From a virus: a stretch of 64,000 bases of DNA. The notes beneath the pieces are model-generated. The model saw only the letters and a program-made list of their open reading frames with translations, had not been told where the DNA came from and did no database searches. The position numbers were made by a program, and so were the translations under genes. Positions 1-10,516 of the stretch are shown piece after piece. The DNA is taken from IMG/VR virus record IMGVR_UViG_3300046167_000873, positions 32,001 to 96,000 of that record. One strand, given 5' to 3'. Each line of letters opens with the position of its first letter. The first letter of the stretch is position 1.

Positions 1-617
1 ACTTCGACATGATCCAATTCGGAATATGAGTTGTAATCATCGGTCAGTCGAATCAGTACTTCTTCTTGCCAAGCATAATCATTTTTATAGCCGAAGACTA
101 CGTCGTTAGAACGCATTTGCACGACACAGTGTAATTTATTGTCTCTGACGTAATAGGTGACTGCGTTTGTACAGATGAAATCGTTCTTTCCATTTTCGAC
201 AGCTTCCACCCAGATAGATGGTCGAGTATATATGGCCGTTGCTCGTCTTGTGTTACTATCTCCCAACAGACAGTCGAGTACGTTATTGTATTGATCATAG
301 TATTGCTCTCCATGTAGAAGTAATCCATAATTCGAGTTGATTTCACCGTACTTGTTTGCTGAGAGCTCCCATGCTTTAGGCGCTGGACGATCCCCACCAT
401 ATATATCATTAATATTAGTACTATGAGAATCGTACCACCGTAGCTCTCTAAAGATATATTCATCGTTTACTTCTCCAAAGATTGTTGGGCGGTCAGCTAA
501 AAATGAAGCGCCTAACATTTCAATTGTTTTGCAACCAGTACGATCGGTGACAAAATCCTTTCGTAACAGTGCTGTTTTAAAAAACTCTCGTATATCATTA
601 GTGCGAATATGCATCAT
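1..617 (-). CDS. gp42: dCMP hydroxymethylase (T4 gp42-like, thymidylate synthase fold); runs off the left end of the window
   Basis: Not in the ORF track; translated by hand from the ATG at 617 (TAATG overlap with the upstream stop): MMHIRTNDIREFFKTALLRKDFVTDRTGCKTIEMLGASFLAD...GEINSNYG...RRATAIYTRPS...DFICTNAV...MRSNDVVFGYKNDYAWQ. Co-linear with T4 gp42, including the catalytic Cys and the cytosine-specifying Asp (KND). Confidence 0.93.
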   Translation of the reverse strand, partial: MMHIRTNDIREFFKTALLRKDFVTDRTGCKTIEMLGASFLADRPTIFGEVNDEYIFRELRWYDSHSTNINDIYGGDRPAPKAWELSANKYGEINSNYGLLLHGEQYYDQYNNVLDCLLGDSNTRRATAIYTRPSIWVEAVENGKNDFICTNAVTYYVRDNKLHCVVQMRSNDVVFGYKNDYAWQEEVLIRLTDDYNSYSELDHVE

Positions 618-928
618 TAATCTTTCCACCTATCATCTATTTTAGAAGTATCTTGTTGATCCATTGCTATCATCATGATCATAATCTGAGTAGCAGCATG
701 GGCTAAATGGCTTAATCCTGATTCAGGGTCGATGTCTTCACCTGACCAAAATGAATTAAGATGACGTTGAATCGATGAATAGCTACGAGACAATTCTGTG
801 CAGTCTATATCTTCACGCCAATTATTCGCGCCATACTTGTCAGCACCGAAACCGAACACCTTAGAAATTTCTATTAGTGTTTCAGGTGGTATAAGAGCGA
901 GGGGCGGTTTGCCCCTATCATATTTCAT
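617..928 (-). CDS. DUF5664-family dNTP diphosphohydrolase-like protein
   Basis: Family pattern KYD.GK..L.LIP...V..FGA.KYG.NNW...RHL..FW.GED.DPESGL.HLAHA. Confidence 0.85.
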   Translation of the reverse strand: MKYDRGKPPLALIPPETLIEISKVFGFGADKYGANNWREDIDCTELSRSYSSIQRHLNSFWSGEDIDPESGLSHLAHAATQIMIMMIAMDQQDTSKIDDRWKD

Positions 929-2387: not shown

Positions 2388-2789
2388 CTAGACATTTTCA
2401 AAAAGACCGTGGTTGCCTGAATGATCAGGCGCCTTCCATCCACTTGGCTTTACAAGATCAGGCAGACCAAGTGGGTTTGGACGGCTTTCTTTTTGTCCTA
2501 CTTGTTTTGCCATATTAGCTTCTGCTACACGATCCCAAGCTTCATATGCATCTACATTAAAAGCATCTAATGTACCAATAGCAACAACACACAGATCAAT
2601 AAGACCATCAACGATTTCTTCAGGATCACGTGCATCAACTGCAAGAGCAGTTTCATTGAGTTCTTCATAAAGAAACTTAAGACGAAAGTCCAAATACTCC
2701 TTTAACTTGTCTGGGTTATTCTTTACCCATTCACCAACACCGTATTGCTTGTGCATACGTTCAATATCATAAACCCAGTCATTCGACAT
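2388..2789 (-). CDS. MazG-like/PRA-PH all-alpha NTP pyrophosphohydrolase
   Basis: R.KFL.EELNE...EEIVDGLIDL...AW..V..ANMAK...KP.GW..PD pattern. Confidence 0.8.
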   Translation of the reverse strand: MSNDWVYDIERMHKQYGVGEWVKNNPDKLKEYLDFRLKFLYEELNETALAVDARDPEEIVDGLIDLCVVAIGTLDAFNVDAYEAWDRVAEANMAKQVGQKESRPNPLGLPDLVKPSGWKAPDHSGNHGLFENV

Positions 2790-3502: not shown

Positions 3503-5203
3503 TTAAGATGCAATATGTGAAAAGTTCTTAATCTTCTCAAACTTTATATTGCTATGAAATTTATCGTAAAGCTGATCACCTTTATGGCTAATCACAAAGA
3601 CATTACTATCAGATGTAAGCGATGTAATAAGCTTGAGGAATTCATCTGTTCCTGTATTATCAAGTGAGCTGTCAAATACTTCATCCATGATCAATAGGTT
3701 TGTTGTAATTGAATTGCGTAGCTTAGCAACTGCTCTCCACGTAAATAGTAGTGATAAATCAATTCTCATTTTCTCACCTTCAGAAAACGAATCGTATGTA
3801 AATTCATCACGGTGTCTTGATTTAATAACTTCATTGAAGTTTTCATCAAGTTCGAACTGCACAAAAAACTCCATGGCAGCGAGGTACTTATTCATGAGCT
3901 TATTGATCACTGGTATGTATTGCTTTACAATCTTTGCTTTAATTCCAGTGTCCTTGAGTAGACTCAGTCCAATATCATTGATCTCTTTCTGTTCTAAAAG
4001 TACTTTATAGTTGGCTTGCTTATCTTTAACAAAAGCTTCAAGCTCAACAATATCGTCATCAATCGAATCAGGAACAATCTCTTTCTGCTCTTTCATCAGC
4101 TTAGTTACGTCTTGCTTAATAGATGAAAGCAAAGCAGTTGATACTGATTGTTGATTGGTTACTTTTGCTATCTTACCTTTAACTTCGTTCCATTCATCAC
4201 GTACTTTGTCAATCTTGTCAAATTGTGCTGTAAGTTTTTCATAAGCATCATTGAGTTCTGTTTGCTTACTTACAGATTCCGCTATCTTTTTCTTCTTCAT
4301 AGCTTCGTTAATGGTTTGCTTACAGGTAGGACAGTCATCGTGTTTCTCATAGAACTTATTGTCTTCGACTGCCTGTTTAAGTTCGAACTCCATATTGGCT
4401 TTAATCTTGTTTAGCTTTGTTTCTTTATTCTTGGCAGTCTCAATATCAGGTAGTTTGCTTTCTAGTTTCTCGATATCTTTATCGTATGCTCGAATAGTTT
4501 TAACCGTATCCTCATATTTTTTCTTATGGATCTGTATCTCTTTTTCTTTATCTTCTTTGTTCTTCAAAACCATCGAAGTAATCTTTGCTGCATGTTGGCG
4601 TGTGAGTTCAATCTTCTGTTCACACTTTTCAATCTCGTGCTTGTGTTCAGTCAATTGTGCCTTAACATCGTTTGCTCTTTCTTTTAGGATTGTATTCATC
4701 TTAGTAAAGATTTCTATATCAAGAAGATCTTCTATGACACTCCTGCGATCACCTGGCTTCATTTGCATGAATGGCATATAGTTTGCAGAGCCAATCACAA
4801 CAATTTGCGTGAAGGACTTGTGGTTGAGCTTGAGGATAGTCTTCTCAAGCATTTCTTGGTATTCCTTTATGCTGGCATTTTGATCTATCAAAGTATCATC
4901 CGCATATATTTCAAACACGGCTGGCTTGATGCCTCTACGAACTTTATAGTGTTTGCCTTTGGTCGTAAATTCTATTTCGACAGCACAATCTTTATTTGTA
5001 ATTGAATTAACGAGTTGCGGCTTATTAATATTGCGATAAGGCTTACCATACAATGCAAACATGATTGCATCAAGTATTGTAGATTTACCCGCACCGTTTT
5101 CACCTACAATAAGAGTAGATGCTGAACGATTTAATTGGAGTTCAGTCCATTGATTACCGGTCGATAAGAAATTTTGCCAACGCACTTTCTGAAAGTTTAT
5201 GAT
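3503..5203 (-). CDS. gp46: recombination endonuclease ATPase subunit (SbcC/Rad50-like)
   Basis: Walker A GENGAGKST, zinc hook CPTC, signature FSEGEKMRIDL, Walker B LLIMDE. Start is GTG 5185 or possibly ATC 5203. Confidence 0.96.
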   Translation of the reverse strand: MINFQKVRWQNFLSTGNQWTELQLNRSASTLIVGENGAGKSTILDAIMFALYGKPYRNINKPQLVNSITNKDCAVEIEFTTKGKHYKVRRGIKPAVFEIYADDTLIDQNASIKEYQEMLEKTILKLNHKSFTQIVVIGSANYMPFMQMKPGDRRSVIEDLLDIEIFTKMNTILKERANDVKAQLTEHKHEIEKCEQKIELTRQHAAKITSMVLKNKEDKEKEIQIHKKKYEDTVKTIRAYDKDIEKLESKLPDIETAKNKETKLNKIKANMEFELKQAVEDNKFYEKHDDCPTCKQTINEAMKKKKIAESVSKQTELNDAYEKLTAQFDKIDKVRDEWNEVKGKIAKVTNQQSVSTALLSSIKQDVTKLMKEQKEIVPDSIDDDIVELEAFVKDKQANYKVLLEQKEINDIGLSLLKDTGIKAKIVKQYIPVINKLMNKYLAAMEFFVQFELDENFNEVIKSRHRDEFTYDSFSEGEKMRIDLSLLFTWRAVAKLRNSITTNLLIMDEVFDSSLDNTGTDEFLKLITSLTSDSNVFVISHKGDQLYDKFHSNIKFEKIKNFSHIAS

Positions 5204-5616
5204 AACGTATTTCCTCTAAGTAAAAGCTCACCATTATACTGTGTATTCACTTGAACAGAACCCTCATTCTGTGATACTGCCCACCAAATAGCCCAAACAA
5301 GTTGTACCTGATCAACCTCTTCATATTTAGTCTGTCTAATAAAAAGGTGCTTACCTTCTTCGTCTTCGTTTTGGTATGTTATGAATCCACATTTATTTGG
5401 CTTTAAAGATTCAGGAAGTCCTTCATCTTCTAACCAAGAACATCTAAATGATCTGCACGTAATTGGTCTATCTGGATAAATTGTACAACCTGATTCATAT
5501 TTTGAACACACAGGCATATTAGATGATGCTATAACATCTTCACCAGTCATTGACTTATCATTAAACCATAAAATACCGGTGCAGCATGCATAGCAATCAC
5601 CGCATTCCCTACTCAT
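5197..5616 (-). CDS. YkgJ/FliB-like CxxCxxCC cysteine-cluster protein
   Basis: CGDCYACC...C...GCTIYPDRPITCRSFRC. Confidence 0.8.
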   Translation of the reverse strand: MSRECGDCYACCTGILWFNDKSMTGEDVIASSNMPVCSKYESGCTIYPDRPITCRSFRCSWLEDEGLPESLKPNKCGFITYQNEDEEGKHLFIRQTKYEEVDQVQLVWAIWWAVSQNEGSVQVNTQYNGELLLRGNTLS

Positions 5617-6718
5617 TAGATATTGCCTCAGAATATAAGTCGTAAAATAAATCGTGCACTGGCTTCGGTGCTGGAAGATTCAAACTATCAATGTACTTGT
5701 TCACGATTGTAGCTGTGTCTTCTGCTTCATTAATAATGTCGTCTGCGTTTTCCATATCAAGACGTAGATTATCTTCTACGATTTGAACGTGACATGGATT
5801 AGCTTGATTGATGCTATCGACAAATAAATCGAAGAGGTATGGATTGTCTTTATTCTTTACGACAATCTTTATGAAGGTATCTTTGAGGTGGCCATGATCT
5901 TCTTTTATAGATGCATGGATATTATCTTCGTTGCTATCATCATAAAATACTTTGTGGAACATAGAGTAAGGATTCTTAATGTATTCTAACTCTCTTGTTT
6001 TAGTATCAAAAATATGAAACCCACGATCATCATCATAATCAGACCATGTCATTTCATATGGTGCGCCTAGATAATGTATATTGTCTTTCGAGGACTTATG
6101 GTGGAAGTGACCAGACATCACCATATCAAACTTGCCAAACGTCGCGTGGCTCATTCCTGAGTCTATCTTTGTACCTTTATACATTTCAAAACCACTGAGC
6201 TCAAGGTGACCCATACATACGTCAGCATTGCTGTTTTTGATTGTATGCATTGCATAATCATAATTCGAACTATTGATCCAAGGCATAAACATTATTTTAC
6301 AGCCATCAAAATCAAAGTCATTAGATGGGTGTGCGTGTACCCACATCTCTGATGTATTGAGTATGTAATCGTTTTTTGGACAGGGCCATTTATCCTTCAT
6401 CCATCCAAGGAGTAGATACGGTGCGTTTACGGCGTTAGTGTTCTTAAAGTATGTATCATGATTACCAACGATACAATGGAGATTGATACCCTTACCATAA
6501 ATTGGACCAAAAAAATAATCATTACAACGCTTAAGACTATCGAAATTGATGTACTTACGTCGATCAAAAATGTCTCCCAATTCAATGATATCTTTGATAC
6601 CACGCTCTTCCAAGGTTGGGAAAAATACTTCGCTATAAAACTTTTCATAATAATTATGAAACTGTGTACTGTCATTTCGAACCCCGAAATGCTGGTCTGT
6701 AATTAAAGCGATCTTCAT
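5609..6718 (-). CDS. gp47: recombination endonuclease nuclease subunit (SbcD/Mre11-like)
   Basis: Metallophosphoesterase motifs TDQHFG, LGDIFD, GNHD, GHFH. Confidence 0.96.
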   Translation of the reverse strand: MKIALITDQHFGVRNDSTQFHNYYEKFYSEVFFPTLEERGIKDIIELGDIFDRRKYINFDSLKRCNDYFFGPIYGKGINLHCIVGNHDTYFKNTNAVNAPYLLLGWMKDKWPCPKNDYILNTSEMWVHAHPSNDFDFDGCKIMFMPWINSSNYDYAMHTIKNSNADVCMGHLELSGFEMYKGTKIDSGMSHATFGKFDMVMSGHFHHKSSKDNIHYLGAPYEMTWSDYDDDRGFHIFDTKTRELEYIKNPYSMFHKVFYDDSNEDNIHASIKEDHGHLKDTFIKIVVKNKDNPYLFDLFVDSINQANPCHVQIVEDNLRLDMENADDIINEAEDTATIVNKYIDSLNLPAPKPVHDLFYDLYSEAISNE

Positions 6719-7845
6719 TTACTTATCCTTTCGATCTCTTGACGTATTTCCATAGCGCCTGATTTCGTACCAAATTTATGACCATGTACTGCACCACCAG
6801 CATTAGCAAGATAATCATTACCAATTCTATTCGTAATCGGTTCGATGAGTCCTGCATGCATACCACAACTAAGTATTGGTATTGTATTACATTCTCGTAG
6901 CGCGTGTACACAGTTCATTGTTTCAGAATCGTCGTGGTTACTATAACCACCAAGCATTCCTACTTGAATAGAATCAACACCGCAGAGTGTTGCGAGACGA
7001 CACATGACTGGCCATGATATACTATATCGGTGTGATTTATCGCACATGACTTTTGAGCCACTGCTTTGATAATGCATAAACAGGGGTAAATCCATACGAC
7101 GGATACTATGGTATGCACCTAATCCGCTAAAGACATTAACATGCACACCACGACCACCTAATTCGCTCACCATCAAAGCTCTCTCACTAATCACATGAGG
7201 ATCACCATTTATGGTATGGCAAAACATTATATTAGAATTAATTCGTTCTAAATAATTTGCGACTGCATCGACACGTTCATATAAAGGAGCTATTGCTGGG
7301 TTAGACATGATTTCATCTTCTTTGATAAAATCAACACCACCATCAACCAGCATTGATACCATGTCGATCAACGTCTTTGTAGTAATCCCAATCTTTGGTT
7401 TGATAATACTACCAAATAACGGTTTATCATATTGCCCAGTTTTTTCTCTTAGACCAGATAACCCAATCTTTGGCTTATAAAAAAGCTTTTCAATTCTATC
7501 AGGGAAGGATATATCAATGAGTCGGCATTTTTCAACAATTTCAATGTCAGTATGACCGCCCATCAATTGACAAAGCAAATGGCTAATGCCGTCGTTTTTC
7601 CAATCTGTATTACAAACAGGATATGCAATACAAATAACGTCGTCACGATTCAAGTCCACAATTTTACATGCGAACTTCTCTATCATTTCCTGCGTTTCCC
7701 AGTCATTACGAATATCAGGATTACCGATACTCTGACCAATTGCTATTGCGTAAGCTGCTTCTTCAATTGTTGTCTTAGATTCGATTTCATAGCAAGCAAG
7801 GACATAGTCATTCCTTAACTCTTCCATCTTCCGATATAAGTTCAT
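6715..7845 (-). CDS. RuBisCO-like protein (form IV RLP)
   Basis: GSIIKPKIG (K175/K177), GGVDFIKEDE (K201/D203/E204), LSCG, AGGAVHGH; lacks H294, R295, H327 and K334 equivalents. Confidence 0.9.
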   Translation of the reverse strand: MNLYRKMEELRNDYVLACYEIESKTTIEEAAYAIAIGQSIGNPDIRNDWETQEMIEKFACKIVDLNRDDVICIAYPVCNTDWKNDGISHLLCQLMGGHTDIEIVEKCRLIDISFPDRIEKLFYKPKIGLSGLREKTGQYDKPLFGSIIKPKIGITTKTLIDMVSMLVDGGVDFIKEDEIMSNPAIAPLYERVDAVANYLERINSNIMFCHTINGDPHVISERALMVSELGGRGVHVNVFSGLGAYHSIRRMDLPLFMHYQSSGSKVMCDKSHRYSISWPVMCRLATLCGVDSIQVGMLGGYSNHDDSETMNCVHALRECNTIPILSCGMHAGLIEPITNRIGNDYLANAGGAVHGHKFGTKSGAMEIRQEIERISK

Positions 7846-8233
7846 CTAATTGTTCTCCACGGTATTCTGTTATCTTATCTCCTGGGATACTAGGAGCTTT
7901 CACGCATACTATCACACAATCTTCTAAAAATACAGGTTTAACGATAGATTTTTTAGGAACAACAAATACAGATTCAGGTTCAATAATCGTACCATAAATT
8001 GACATCTTGCCTGTCACGAGTACATTGTATTCATCATGAGATCGATGGTAGTGTGCTGGCCAATCTTCCCCCTTGCTGTGTTTAAAAACACCAACTTCAA
8101 ATTTAGAAGTCTTTAAAACGGATGGTTCGAAATTACCGATAAACCAACCTCTTGTAAATTCAGAAAGTGGTATTACCCTCATTTGTCGGTTACCAAATTT
8201 TAAACCGAAAATTCTTTTAATCAACTTAATCAT
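7808..8233 (-). CDS. cupin-fold protein
   Basis: GWFIGNFEPS...AHYH....EYNVLVTGKM cupin metal motif; start at 8233 or 8182. Confidence 0.8.
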   Translation of the reverse strand: MIKLIKRIFGLKFGNRQMRVIPLSEFTRGWFIGNFEPSVLKTSKFEVGVFKHSKGEDWPAHYHRSHDEYNVLVTGKMSIYGTIIEPESVFVVPKKSIVKPVFLEDCVIVCVKAPSIPGDKITEYRGEQLDELISEDGRVKE

Positions 8234-10001
8234 TTTTACGTACCACATAATTGCCCATGAATAAAATATCAATATCCATTTTCATAAACGCATTTAATGC
8301 ATCAGTAGGAGTTTCAACTATAGGTTCGCCATTATCATTGAATGAAGTATTAAGTACAATCGGCACACCAGTTTTCTCATTAACAGCACGAAGCAGTTTT
8401 GTTACTGTATGATTTTGTTCTTCGTTAACTGTTTGAATACGGCAGCTACGATCAAGATGTGAGATTGCTGGTATCTCAGAAACTTTATCTTCTTTTACTG
8501 TAAACGCATAAAGCATATACGGAGATTCAAAATCTTCTTCAAAGTAATCTGTAAGATACTCATCAAGAATAATACCGGCAAACGGCCTCCACTCTTCTCT
8601 ATGCTTCACCCTTTGATTAAGTATATCTTTATTTTCGGCTAATTTTGGGCTCATTAAAATAGACCGTGAACCAAGTGCTCTTGGACCAAACTCAGATCTA
8701 CCTTGAAACCATCCTACTATTTTATTATCGTTAATACATTCTGCTGCGATGTTATCAATATCAAATGGTCTATGTTCATAAAACAAACTATTTTCTGTTG
8801 ATCTATTAAATTCTTTGATCGCCTCTTCTATTTCATTACTATTATAATGCTTACCTAATAATGCAATATTATCAGGCATAGTAGGATGCTTACAACCTTG
8901 GCTAACAAGACCTAGAAACGCAGCACCTAAATGTAATCCTGTATCTGTAGTATACGGCGGAATGTGTACTCCTTTCATCATCGGCGTCTGTTTTAGCCAA
9001 GTGTTTGCTTTTACATTTAAAAATATACCACCTGAAAAACATACGTTATCTTCTAAGTATCCTTCCTTATAATATAAGGTCATCATTTTCTGAAGTGCGT
9101 CTTCGTGGTTACGCTGTAGAACGTATGCTTTTTCTGCATGTGACAGAGTAGTGCATTCTTCTGATGACCAATGCGGGTGATGCTCTCCAATGTATGGTCT
9201 GCCGTTATAACCAATCTCTTCATTTGTTATGGTGTAAATATATTTTTTTTCAAAATCTGGGTCTTTACCTAAATCTGAACCGTATGCACAAAGTCCCATA
9301 ATTTTTCCGTGCATAGAATCCATTTCACCACGGTAATGTTTTCCTGTATTATGCTCTATATCAATAATACTGCAAAAAATGCTTTCTGAACCTATTGCCC
9401 AATGTGAGCCTAAACAATTTGTATGTGGCAAATCGTGGAATATTCTAAACATGGATTTGTTTTTATTAAAATATCCTAACGCACCTCTTTCTGTAATAGA
9501 GGTTGGAAAAACAAATCTGCCTTCATCGTCTCGGGCTACGTGTGACGGAATACTCTCGCCTGAACCATCATTTGTAATAAACGCACCTTCTTCATACGGG
9601 CTTGTATAGATAGACACTGCTGCGTGGCAACTATGATGGGGATAAAATTCTATTTTTGCTTTTGGAAATAATCCCTCAAGCCGTTTTTGTAATTGATGTT
9701 CAAACCTTGATATTTTAAAAAGAGGTGATCCTGGAGTAGCGACACAAACCATATCGATCATATCTACAGTTAGTTTACCTGCTTCAAGGCAATACATAAT
9801 ACTTTGTTGCGGCTCTGATCCATCATATTTTACGCGAGAAAGCCTTTCTTCTTGGATACTACAGATGTGTTCTCCATCTATAAACAGGCTCGCTCCAGCA
9901 TCATGCACCCATTCTACCAGATGTTGTTCGATATCATTTTTAATATGGTCTTCATTTCTAGGATTCCAACCCCACGCACCATACACGCCGAGAATATTCA
10001 T
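8226..10001 (-). CDS. NodU/CmcH/TobZ-family O-carbamoyltransferase
   Basis: HDAGA, EERLSRVK, HHSCHAA, DGSGE, GKIMGL, SGGIFLN, GRSEFGPRALGSRS, KHRE.WRPFA, LNTSFN. Confidence 0.95.
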   Translation of the reverse strand: MNILGVYGAWGWNPRNEDHIKNDIEQHLVEWVHDAGASLFIDGEHICSIQEERLSRVKYDGSEPQQSIMYCLEAGKLTVDMIDMVCVATPGSPLFKISRFEHQLQKRLEGLFPKAKIEFYPHHSCHAAVSIYTSPYEEGAFITNDGSGESIPSHVARDDEGRFVFPTSITERGALGYFNKNKSMFRIFHDLPHTNCLGSHWAIGSESIFCSIIDIEHNTGKHYRGEMDSMHGKIMGLCAYGSDLGKDPDFEKKYIYTITNEEIGYNGRPYIGEHHPHWSSEECTTLSHAEKAYVLQRNHEDALQKMMTLYYKEGYLEDNVCFSGGIFLNVKANTWLKQTPMMKGVHIPPYTTDTGLHLGAAFLGLVSQGCKHPTMPDNIALLGKHYNSNEIEEAIKEFNRSTENSLFYEHRPFDIDNIAAECINDNKIVGWFQGRSEFGPRALGSRSILMSPKLAENKDILNQRVKHREEWRPFAGIILDEYLTDYFEEDFESPYMLYAFTVKEDKVSEIPAISHLDRSCRIQTVNEEQNHTVTKLLRAVNEKTGVPIVLNTSFNDNGEPIVETPTDALNAFMKMDIDILFMGNYVVRKND

Positions 10002-10516
10002 TCTTCAGTAAACCTCTCAACGCCTTTAAGTGTTTTTTTGTTGTTGTCTGTTTTTTTCTTGGATTCAAATTTATCAATAATAGGTTTCATTTTTTCATTT
10101 TGAATATTAAAGTCTTTGTATCCATTGCTACTTTCAGCTTCAAAAAAGTCAGCGTCGATAACAAGTTCTTCGAGAGATTTATATTTGACGTAGGTTTGCT
10201 TTTGCTCCTTTTCTATGCGCCGCAAAAAGGCAAACCAAATAATTCGAGTAAAATATCCAAACGGGTTTTTAGATTTTTCTGGATCAAAACTATGAACTGC
10301 AACAATACAGTTTTCTAGTGAATCGTTGATCATTTCATCTTTGTAAGTATAACCGACAAAATTACCACGGTTGGCAGTACGGGTGGCTATAAGGTAAAAA
10401 GCTTCACCAATCTTTTCTGGTATTCTTGGCACTTCACCGTCAAGTGCTTCATTACATGATTTACGATAATCGACTAGCAGTTGATAAAATTCTTTGTTGT
10501 CTATATAGTTTGCCAT
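9998..10516 (-). CDS. gp55: late-transcription sigma factor
   Basis: NYIDNKEF...NFVGYTYKDEMI.D...FDPEKSKNPFGYFT.I...AFLRRI.KE. Confidence 0.95.
   Translation of the reverse strand: MANYIDNKEFYQLLVDYRKSCNEALDGEVPRIPEKIGEAFYLIATRTANRGNFVGYTYKDEMINDSLENCIVAVHSFDPEKSKNPFGYFTRIIWFAFLRRIEKEQKQTYVKYKSLEELVIDADFFEAESSNGYKDFNIQNEKMKPIIDKFESKKKTDNNKKTLKGVERFTEE

What the first reader, a model, noticed from the sequence alone, without database searches (positions are those of the whole stretch)
6715..7845. Phage-encoded RuBisCO-like protein with an atypical active site
Seen: K175/K177 (IIKPK) and the Mg-binding K201/D203/E204 (KEDE) are retained. The H294/R295 region reads MHYQSSG, the H327 position is Q (DSIQVG), loop-6 K334 is absent (GMLGGY), and SGG is SCG. 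At 376 aa it is compact. Inference: not a carboxylase but an enolase, isomerase or decarboxylase of unknown substrate. RuBisCO-superfamily genes are unusual in tailed phages.
Basis: partly seen in the sequence, partly recalled or inferred. Interest (0 to 1): 0.72.

Follow-up and report, generated by a model that had tools for sequence, protein, structure and literature searches.

The report
Phage RuBisCO-like enzyme, sugar-activation cassette
A T4-like phage carries a RuBisCO relative that cannot fix CO2; it belongs to a phage clade first reported in 2019, and its constant partners point to an untested job: preparing a sugar phosphate for surface-sugar synthesis.

Summary
Window 6715-7845 (- strand) encodes a 376-aa RuBisCO large-chain homologue. 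It keeps K175/K177 and the K201/D203/E204 metal site. It has lost E60, N123, H294, R295, H327 and K334, so it is not a carboxylase.

It is not new as a kind. It falls in the 'form IV-like' phage and Beckwithbacteria clade of Jaffe et al. 2019, whose function is unknown. At least 175 IMG/VR contigs carry relatives. None of 50,697 deposited phage genomes does.

It scores far below every curated cut-off (forms I-III, MtnW, OiaX) and branches apart from the MtnW and OiaX clades.

The clade travels with three partners: a sugar-1-phosphate nucleotidyltransferase (85 of 89 loci, and fused to the RLP in P0122), a small cupin (57 of 89) and a GDPD-like protein (71 of 89). These sit in islands of glycosyl- and methyltransferase genes.

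In this phage the cassette is split. Cupin and RLP sit with a carbamoyltransferase between gp55 and gp47. The nucleotidyltransferase and GDPD-like genes lie about 30 kb away.

Best reading (about 0.55): a Mg-dependent enolising isomerase that makes a keto-sugar monophosphate for nucleotide activation and glycan building. Other agents of this scan reached the same reading on other genomes.

The parts
6715..7845 (-). RuBisCO-like protein (376 aa) of the phage 'form IV-like' clade. The Mg/enolisation core is kept; the carboxylation residues and the distal phosphate-site residues are replaced.
   Evidence: ORF; Pfam; PDB matches; clade alignment A2; tree; AF2 model and Foldseek; residue mapping.
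7808..8182 (-). Small monocupin of about 124 aa. The likely start is the internal ATG at 8182; the open frame runs up to 8272. It has the metal motif G-x5-HxH-x4-E-x6-G. Its 3' end overlaps the RLP start by 38 nt.
   Evidence: Matches phrog_24762 (7e-23). It is 50-60% identical to the cupins that sit directly upstream of the RLP in other loci. AF2 pLDDT is 91.5, and the nearest solved folds are small sugar-acting cupins such as archaeal mini phosphomannose isomerases and KdgF.
8226..10001 (-). NodU/CmcH-type O-carbamoyltransferase (591 aa). It is a lineage-specific neighbour of the cupin-RLP pair and is not part of the clade-wide cassette.
   Evidence: Pfam Carbam_trans_C 2.7e-68 and Carbam_trans_N 4.4e-22; phrog_1601. 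The trio is conserved in the contigs carrying P0001 and P0002. The family is absent from five other RLP-bearing phage records.
5609..6718 (-). gp47-like recombination nuclease subunit (context). Its ATG overlaps the RLP stop codon (ATGA).
9998..10516 (-). gp55-like late sigma factor (context). It forms the upstream border of the carbamoyltransferase-cupin-RLP trio.
   Evidence: Weak Sigma70_r2 match; same position in related contigs.

Best explanation
The gene encodes a working Mg2+-dependent enzyme of the RuBisCO fold that does not fix CO2. It most likely enolises a keto-sugar monophosphate and so isomerises or epimerises it, or otherwise rearranges it. The substrate would carry the -CH2-OPO3-C(=O)-CHOH- unit common to all known RLP substrates.

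The small cupin encoded just upstream probably carries out the neighbouring step. The resulting sugar phosphate is then activated by the phage's sugar-1-phosphate-type nucleotidyltransferase, which lies about 30 kb away in this genome beside a GDPD-like protein. The activated sugar feeds the phage's glycosyltransferases. In this lineage the carbamoyl-, methyl- and sulfotransferases would tailor the glycan.

Shown here: the fold, the retained metal and enolisation residues, the lost carboxylation residues, clade membership, and the synteny and fusions.

Inferred: the reaction type, the order of steps, the substrate, and whether the glycan ends up on the host envelope, the virion or elsewhere.
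For: (1) Core residues are invariant across the clade: IxKPK, FIKEDEIM, SCG, NxGGxxH, and also GQSxGNP, MGGxxDI and GMxGGY. In total 184 of 213 unique sequences carry the full signature. That level of constraint indicates an enzyme.

(2) The proximal phosphate-site glycines (G381, G403/404) are kept. The distal site drifts R/H to K/H to K/Q to S/Q, which fits a monophosphate substrate.

(3) By tblastn in 89 related loci, a nucleotidyltransferase is present in 85, the GDPD-like protein in 71 and the cupin in 57. The usual order is NT-cupin-RLP.

(4) Fusions link the parts: RLP with NTP_transferase (P0122, 667 aa, 46% identical, inside the clade), NT with cupin (L087), and beta-phosphoglucomutase-type HAD with NT (L080, L089).

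(5) The NT resembles GlmU, RmlA and HddC sugar-1-phosphate transferases.

(6) The neighbours are GT2, GT25, WavE and GT1-like transferases, FkbM methyltransferases and NAD epimerases.

(7) Deeper cellular relatives P0127, P0132 and P0135 also sit next to an NT and glycosyltransferases. The RLP-NT-cupin set also lies in a Verrucomicrobiae chromosome among ordinary cellular genes.

(8) This phage's own record encodes the NT and the GDPD-like protein (G000 8844-9617 and 8377-8850). It also has FkbM methyltransferases, a GT25-like gene and two sulfotransferases at 141-146 kb.
Against: No biochemical data exist for any member of the clade.

A sugar-1-phosphate NT needs an anomeric phosphate, which an RLP-type rearrangement of a ketose phosphate does not obviously supply. 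The beta-PGM-like HAD that could bridge this gap is present in only a few loci.

The cupin and the GDPD-like protein also occur in cultured cyanophages that lack the RLP, next to phosphoheptose isomerase, kinase and phosphatase genes. They are therefore not RLP-specific partners.

The nearest outgroup, P0139, sits in a catabolic operon with a kinase, a split transketolase and an aldolase. The ancestral role may therefore have been degradative.

In this window the RLP is not adjacent to the NT.
Confidence: 0.55

Rival explanations
1. The cupin-RLP pair (with the carbamoyltransferase in this lineage) feeds a DNA hypermodification pathway. The trio sits where T4 carries alpha-glucosyltransferase, so the activated sugar would end up on phage DNA bases rather than on a glycan.
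For: The trio lies between gp55 and gp47. The statement that this is the T4 alpha-gt position rests on my own knowledge of the T4 map. A ThyA-family gene, a dATP/dGTP-pyrophosphohydrolase-like gene and a MazG-like gene lie within 6 kb. Another first-stage note raised the same idea.
Against: Across the clade the context is LPS- or capsule-type glycosyltransferases, FkbM O-methyltransferases and sulfotransferases. The cassette also occurs in bacterial chromosomes with no phage genes nearby. The carbamoyltransferase is absent from five other RLP phage records, three of them complete. The ThyA-like protein matches ordinary thymidylate synthase families. This rival concerns the final acceptor, not the RLP chemistry.
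Confidence: 0.1
2. The pair works like the DeepYkr RLP plus cupin of the MTA-isoprenoid shunt. The RLP would be a 5-methylthioribulose-1-phosphate 1,3-isomerase and the cupin a methylsulfurylase, recycling MTA.
For: An adjacent RLP and cupin perform exactly these steps in R. rubrum and R. palustris (PMC5893883). The proximal phosphate site is kept and the distal one lost, as expected for a ketose 1-phosphate with an uncharged tail.
Against: The clade profile shows no special affinity to DeepYkr; no R. rubrum RLP chain is among the 60 best PDB matches. The clade branches apart from the other RLP groups. It is fused and linked to nucleotidyltransferases and sits in glycan islands. The phage cupin is only generically cupin-like. 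I did not look for mtnP or mtnA partners.
Confidence: 0.07
3. It is a catabolic sugar-phosphate enzyme that redirects host carbon flow during infection, as in the P0139-type operon, with no link to glycan synthesis.
For: The nearest outgroup, P0139, lies beside a GPI-type cupin, a split transketolase, an FGGY kinase, a class II aldolase and sugar transporters. Cyanophage-like phages are known to carry pentose-phosphate genes (own knowledge).
Against: Neither a kinase, transketolase or aldolase accompanies the phage-type clade. The NT linkage and fusions argue for biosynthesis.
Confidence: 0.08
4. It is a catalytically dead or purely structural/regulatory RuBisCO-fold protein, or a true carboxylase with an unorthodox active site.
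For: Several canonical catalytic residues are missing.
Against: The metal ligands and the KPK motif are invariant, and a new set of invariant residues lines the site. That pattern indicates selection on catalysis. Carboxylation lacks K334, H294, N123 and E60, and the protein scores 166 bits against a 497-bit form III cut-off.
Confidence: 0.04

Closest known systems
'Form IV-like' RuBisCO-related proteins of phages (Myoviridae) and Beckwithbacteria (Jaffe, Castelle, Dupont & Banfield 2019, Mol Biol Evol; PMC6389311)
   Same: Carried on T4-like/myovirus contigs from IMG/VR. Highly divergent from other RLPs. Groups with Beckwithbacteria and Patescibacteria sequences. Key residues are only partly conserved. 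Function is unknown.
   Different: Nothing essential; this is a member. The paper did not report the linkage to nucleotidyltransferase, cupin and GDPD-like genes. This lineage also differs in detail: the cassette is split, a carbamoyltransferase is its neighbour, and the C-terminal tail is missing.
DeepYkr RLP plus cupin methylsulfurylase (MTA-isoprenoid shunt, R. rubrum / R. palustris)
   Same: An RLP gene adjacent to a small cupin gene. The enzyme enolises a ketose 1-phosphate without carboxylation (PMC5893883).
   Different: No specific sequence affinity. The genomic setting differs: NT fusions and glycan islands rather than methionine salvage.
MtnW/YkrW 2,3-diketo-5-methylthiopentyl-1-phosphate enolase
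   Same: Same fold, a carbamylatable Lys with the Asp/Glu metal site, and a monophosphate substrate. PDB 2oek matches the clade profile at 4e-49.
   Different: Scores 145 and 112 bits against cut-offs of 409 and 514. It has Gly where the Bacillus MtnW-like reference in my alignment has Lys, at the N123 position; I recall that Lys as MtnW's catalytic base. It lies in a separate clade.
OiaX/OiaC RLPs of D-apionate catabolism and the RLPs linked to DUF1537 kinases (PDB 3nwr)
   Same: RLPs that act on a 3-oxo sugar-acid 4-phosphate. 3nwr is the best profile match (1e-49).
   Different: Scores 121 bits against a cut-off of 700. It lies in a separate clade. No four-carbon acid-sugar kinase gene is nearby.
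Form III RuBisCO (archaeal AMP pathway)
   Same: The closest solved fold (TM 0.89) and the best single-sequence PDB match (8dht, 6e-37).
   Different: Lacks E60, N123, H294, R295, H327 and K334. Scores 166 bits against a cut-off of 497.

Membership tests
RuBisCO large-chain superfamily (Pfam PF00016 / PF02788) | N-terminal alpha+beta domain followed by a C-terminal TIM barrel, scoring above the Pfam gathering thresholds | tested here: met
   PF00016 scores 116.3 bits (cut-off 30.1) and PF02788 scores 30.4 bits (cut-off 20.7). AF2 pLDDT is 92.5, and TM is 0.88-0.90 to form III structures.
Bona fide RuBisCO (forms I-III) | Activation and metal site K201/D203/E204 together with K175/K177 | tested here: met
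   KEDE and IIKPK align to KDDE and KPK of a form I reference.
Bona fide RuBisCO (forms I-III) | Carboxylation and RuBP-binding residues E60, N123, H294, R295, H327 and K334 | tested here: not met
   The aligned residues are G, G, Q, S, Q and Y. NCBIfam scores are 166/497 (form III), 158/438 (form I) and 93/489 (form II).
MtnW (DK-MTP-1-P enolase) | Reaches the equivalog score and carries the Lys at the N123 position (which I recall as the catalytic base) | tested here: not met
   Scores are 145/409 and 112/514 bits. The position is Gly, where the Bacillus MtnW-like reference has Lys. The two lie in separate clades.
OiaX / DUF1537-linked RLPs | Reaches the equivalog score, groups with OiaX, and has an adjacent four-carbon acid-sugar kinase gene | tested here: not met
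   Scores 121/700 bits. OiaX and the DUF1537-linked references form another clade. No such kinase gene lies in the window or in the related loci.
DeepYkr RLP (MTRu-1-P 1,3-isomerase) | Adjacent cupin gene | tested here: met
   The cupin gene lies directly upstream and overlaps the RLP start.
DeepYkr RLP (MTRu-1-P 1,3-isomerase) | Specific sequence kinship with the R. rubrum / R. palustris RLP1 group, and an mtnP/mtnA context | tested here: inconclusive
   No DeepYkr chain appears among the 60 best PDB matches to the clade profile. No named DeepYkr sequence was available for the tree. I did not search for mtnP or mtnA.
Phage/Beckwithbacteria 'form IV-like' clade (Jaffe et al. 2019) | Encoded on myovirus-type phage contigs | tested here: met
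   gp46, gp47, gp55, gp23, UvsW and UvsY homologues surround the gene. The record is an IMG/VR virus of 150,920 bp.
Phage/Beckwithbacteria 'form IV-like' clade (Jaffe et al. 2019) | Forms one clade with the IMG/VR phage RLPs and the Beckwithbacteria sequences, apart from other RLPs | tested here: met
   In the IQ-TREE tree the clade has SH-aLRT 98. It holds the window protein, the IMG/VR sequences, L005 (Beckwithbacteria) and L003 (Patescibacteria). I did not have the paper's own sequences, so identity with their clade is inferred from these shared properties.

The most novel reading that the evidence does not exclude
The phage-type RLP would be the first RuBisCO-fold enzyme with a biosynthetic role. 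It would make an unusual sugar phosphate, perhaps keto, epimerised or branched-chain, which a dedicated nucleotidyltransferase activates for glycan assembly. The S/Q and K/H variants of the distal site would specify different sugars. That would define a new nucleotide-sugar pathway, widespread in aquatic phages and scattered among bacteria.
Probability: 0.4. Interest if true: 0.75.

Novelty: new member of a known kind. Interest (0 to 1): 0.45.

Why it matters
All characterised RuBisCO-like proteins work in salvage or catabolism: methionine salvage, the MTA-isoprenoid shunt and apionate breakdown. A clade that is wired to nucleotide activation and glycosyltransferases, and is sometimes fused to the nucleotidyltransferase, would extend the RuBisCO fold into glycan biosynthesis. 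It would also reveal an unknown activated sugar made by abundant uncultured aquatic phages.

The cassette is small: RLP, cupin, NT and a GDPD-like protein. That makes the hypothesis directly testable in vitro. For this particular window the added value is modest. It is one more member of the clade, with a split cassette and a carbamoyltransferase neighbour.

Tried and rejected
- Carboxylase: rejected on residues and family scores.
- Membership in MtnW, OiaX or forms I-III: rejected by the NCBIfam cut-offs and the tree.
- Chimeric or contaminant insert: rejected. The same gene order is found in independent samples, and the GC content matches the genome.
- Cyanophage photosynthesis link: there is no psbA in the 83%-complete record, so no argument can rest on host RuBP supply.
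- Specific kinship between the phage cupin and the GPI-type cupin next to P0139: hhalign probability 0.5%, not supported.
- Cupin function from structure: only generic monocupin matches.
- GDPD-like protein ('c2'): Pfam and NCBIfam gave nothing. A profile search matched only the N-terminal catalytic half of glycerophosphodiester phosphodiesterases (8e-05). Its role remains open.
- T4-type late promoter upstream of the trio: none between 6.7 and 10.6 kb. The motif count in the window is not clearly above chance, at 13 against 7.7 expected.
- PEP mutase, seen in a relative's contig: absent from this genome.
- Carter et al. 2018, the apiose pathway paper, could not be read.
Full report
**The observation**

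Window 6715-7845 (- strand) is an intact 376-aa ORF. It matches both Pfam RuBisCO large-chain domains and 99 distinct PDB RuBisCO or RLP sequences. The best match is a form III enzyme, 8dht (6e-37), followed by the Burkholderia RLP 3nwr and the MtnW enolases. An AlphaFold model built on a 31-sequence alignment is confident (pLDDT 92.5). It superposes on form III RuBisCO with TM 0.89 at 22-27% identity.

Alignment to a form I reference fixes the residue equivalences:
- Retained: K175, K177, K201, D203, E204, S379, G381 and G403/404.
- Replaced: E60 to G, T65 to N, W66 to P, N123 to G, H294 to Q, R295 to S, H327 to Q, K334 to Y and G380 to C.

The protein is about 20 residues shorter than most of its relatives because it lacks their C-terminal EY..AI.KWG tail. 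Its stop codon overlaps the start of the gp47-like gene (ATGA), and the cupin gene overlaps its own start.

**Context**

The surrounding genes are those of a T4-like myovirus: gp46/gp47 nuclease, a gp55-like sigma factor, UvsW, UvsY and gp23. The major capsid gene is 75% identical in DNA to that of cyanophage S-CAM7.

The window is bases 32001-96000 of an IMG/VR virus record of 150,920 bp, estimated 83% complete. No psbA was found in it.

GC content around the gene (0.377) equals that of the genome. The order gp55, carbamoyltransferase, cupin, RLP, gp47 recurs on independent metagenome contigs from other samples, whose RLPs are 96% and 80% identical. The gene is therefore a resident phage gene and not an assembly chimera.

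**Which family it belongs to**

It reaches none of NCBI's curated equivalog cut-offs:

| Family | Score (bits) | Cut-off (bits) |
|---|---|---|
| Form III | 166 | 497 |
| Form I | 158 | 438 |
| MtnW | 145 / 112 | 409 / 514 |
| OiaX | 121 | 700 |
| Form II | 93 | 489 |

A profile of the clade is equally distant (about 1e-49) from 3nwr, form III and MtnW.

The word-indexed protein search found 1407 relatives. The best 120 have E-values below 1e-149. Apart from two close relatives at 96% and 80% identity, they are 56-61% identical and mostly 395-399 aa long.

IMG/VR holds at least 175 viral contigs with a relative, on contigs up to 190 kb. By contrast, 50,697 deposited phage genomes and the PHROGs library hold none.

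A maximum-likelihood tree (IQ-TREE, LG+C20 PMSF, 73 rows) gave these results:
- The window protein falls in a clade with SH-aLRT support 98.
- That clade also holds the IMG/VR sequences, Beckwithbacteria and Patescibacteria MAG sequences, and sequences from a Verrucomicrobiae chromosome and a Planctomycetales MAG contig.
- Deeper relatives branch below it: P0127, then the group P0132 to P0149, then P0139.
- The whole group is separate from the OiaX/DUF1537-linked clade and from the MtnW clade.

This matches the 'form IV-like' clade of about 80 phage sequences plus Beckwithbacteria that Jaffe et al. described in 2019 and left without a function (PMC6389311). The finding is therefore a new member of a known kind.

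**What the clade conserves**

Across 213 unique sequences, 184 carry the full signature: IIKPK, FIKEDE, GQSxGNP, MGGxxDI, SCG, His at the position aligned to 292 (two before H294), and Tyr at the K334 position.

The two residues that bind the distal phosphate in RuBisCO vary in a nested way:

| Residues at the R295 / H327 positions | Sequences |
|---|---|
| R / H | 6 |
| K / H | 42 |
| K / Q | 27 |
| S / Q | 125 |
| S / H | 0 |

The window has S/Q, the commonest state among its close relatives. The proximal phosphate-site glycines are kept.

From established knowledge of RLP mechanisms (MtnW, DeepYkr, OiaC/X), this pattern fits a Mg-dependent enolisation of a keto-sugar monophosphate. The phosphate would sit next to the carbonyl. 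The pattern excludes carboxylation.

**Neighbourhood evidence**

I called ORFs in 89 related loci plus the window and clustered the proteins. By tblastn:
- A nucleotidyltransferase of about 240 aa is present in 85 of 89 loci.
- A GDPD-like protein of about 148 aa is present in 71.
- A cupin of about 107 aa is present in 57.

The usual order is NT-cupin-RLP. What each partner looks like:
- **Nucleotidyltransferase.** It resembles GlmU, RmlA, AglF and HddC sugar-1-phosphate transferases.
- **GDPD-like protein.** It keeps the HRG, EN, ExD and H catalytic motifs of the N-terminal half of glycerophosphodiester phosphodiesterases.
- **Cupin.** It has a canonical HxH...E metal site but only generic structural neighbours, such as small phosphomannose isomerases and KdgF.

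Fusions tie the parts together:
- A clade RLP fused to an NTP_transferase domain (P0122).
- NT fused to cupin (L087).
- A beta-phosphoglucomutase-family HAD fused to NT (L080, L089).

The surrounding genes are GT2, GT25, WavE and GT1-like glycosyltransferases, FkbM and other methyltransferases, and NAD-dependent epimerases/dehydratases.

The linkage is older than the phage clade:
- P0127, P0132 and P0135 also lie beside an NT and glycosyltransferases.
- In a 2.28-Mb Verrucomicrobiae chromosome, RLP-NT-cupin sits among ordinary cellular genes.
- The next outgroup, P0139, lies in a catabolic operon with a GPI-type cupin, a split transketolase, an FGGY kinase and a class II aldolase.

**This genome in particular**

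The cassette is split. The cupin and RLP sit with a NodU/CmcH-type O-carbamoyltransferase between gp55 and gp47. The NT (G000 8844-9617) and the GDPD-like gene (G000 8377-8850) lie side by side between uvsX and the DNA polymerase gene, about 30 kb upstream of the RLP and outside the window.

Two FkbM methyltransferases, a GT25-like gene and two sulfotransferases lie at 141-146 kb.

The carbamoyltransferase is specific to this lineage. It is conserved with P0001 and P0002 but absent from five other RLP-bearing phage records, three of them complete.

**Interpretation**

The best-supported reading is that the RLP, probably with the cupin, converts a common keto-sugar phosphate into the sugar phosphate that the phage NT activates. 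The activated sugar would then be used by the phage's glycosyltransferases. In this lineage it would be tailored by carbamoylation, methylation and sulfation. I give this a confidence of about 0.55.

The weak points are these:
- No clade member has been assayed.
- It is unclear how the anomeric phosphate that the NT needs would arise. A mutase-like HAD is present in only a few loci.
- The cupin and GDPD-like genes also occur in cultured cyanophages that have no RLP (Bellamy, SynMITS9220M01, S-SM2, S-CAM9). There they sit next to phosphoheptose isomerase, kinase and phosphatase genes.

Rivals, with my confidence in each:
- A DNA-hypermodification role for the trio (0.1).
- A DeepYkr-like MTA shunt, suggested by the RLP-cupin adjacency in R. 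rubrum and R. palustris (PMC5893883) but not by sequence affinity (0.07).
- A purely catabolic role (0.08).
- A dead protein or a hidden carboxylase (0.04).

**Relation to earlier notes of this scan**

After I had formed this reading, a look-up showed that other agents had reached the same NT-cupin-RLP cassette interpretation. They also cited the same closest-known clade, working on other genomes. The scan has therefore found this before on other DNA. Those notes are not independent evidence; the tests above were run here.

Noticed in passing
P0178 (583 aa): An N-terminal TIR domain is fused to a full RuBisCO-like protein. It groups with P0190 and P0162, away from the phage clade. It may be a defence-type fusion.
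   Followed up: no
P0155 (726 aa) and P0165 (742 aa): An eIF-2B-family domain (the family I recall as including ribose-1,5-bisphosphate and MTR-1-P isomerases) is fused to a RuBisCO with strong N- and C-domain scores. If so, two steps of the archaeal AMP pathway would sit in one polypeptide.
   Followed up: no
L101:1-9287 (cellular contig carrying P0139): The nearest outgroup RLP sits in a sugar-catabolic operon. The operon has an aldo-keto reductase, a class II aldolase, a GntR regulator, an FGGY kinase, a split transketolase, a GPI-type cupin and the RLP. An ABC sugar transporter and glycoside hydrolases flank it. This may be an uncharacterised RLP-dependent sugar degradation route.
   Followed up: partly
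window 3-928 and 2388-2789 (- strand): A 231-aa ThyA-family protein starts just outside the window. Beside it lie a 103-aa dATP/dGTP-pyrophosphohydrolase-like protein and a MazG-like pyrophosphatase. This may be a nucleotide-pool or base-modification module.
   Followed up: partly
G000 141130-146109 (outside the window; L094:2131-7110): Two FkbM methyltransferases, a GT25-like glycosyltransferase and two sulfotransferase-family genes lie in a row. They suggest a methylated and sulfated glycan.
   Followed up: partly
L103:16128-17148 (phage contig carrying P0002): An isocitrate-lyase/PEP-mutase-family gene sits at the contig end in a close relative, which could indicate phosphonate synthesis. 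The family is absent from this genome.
   Followed up: partly
window 5197-5616 (- strand): A 139-aa Cys-rich ORF is wedged between the gp47- and gp46-like genes. It is conserved in the related contigs and matches phrog_9155, which has no known function.
   Followed up: no
whole record G000: The capsid gene is 75% identical in DNA to cyanophage S-CAM7, yet no psbA is present in the 83%-complete record. The host is uncertain.
   Followed up: partly
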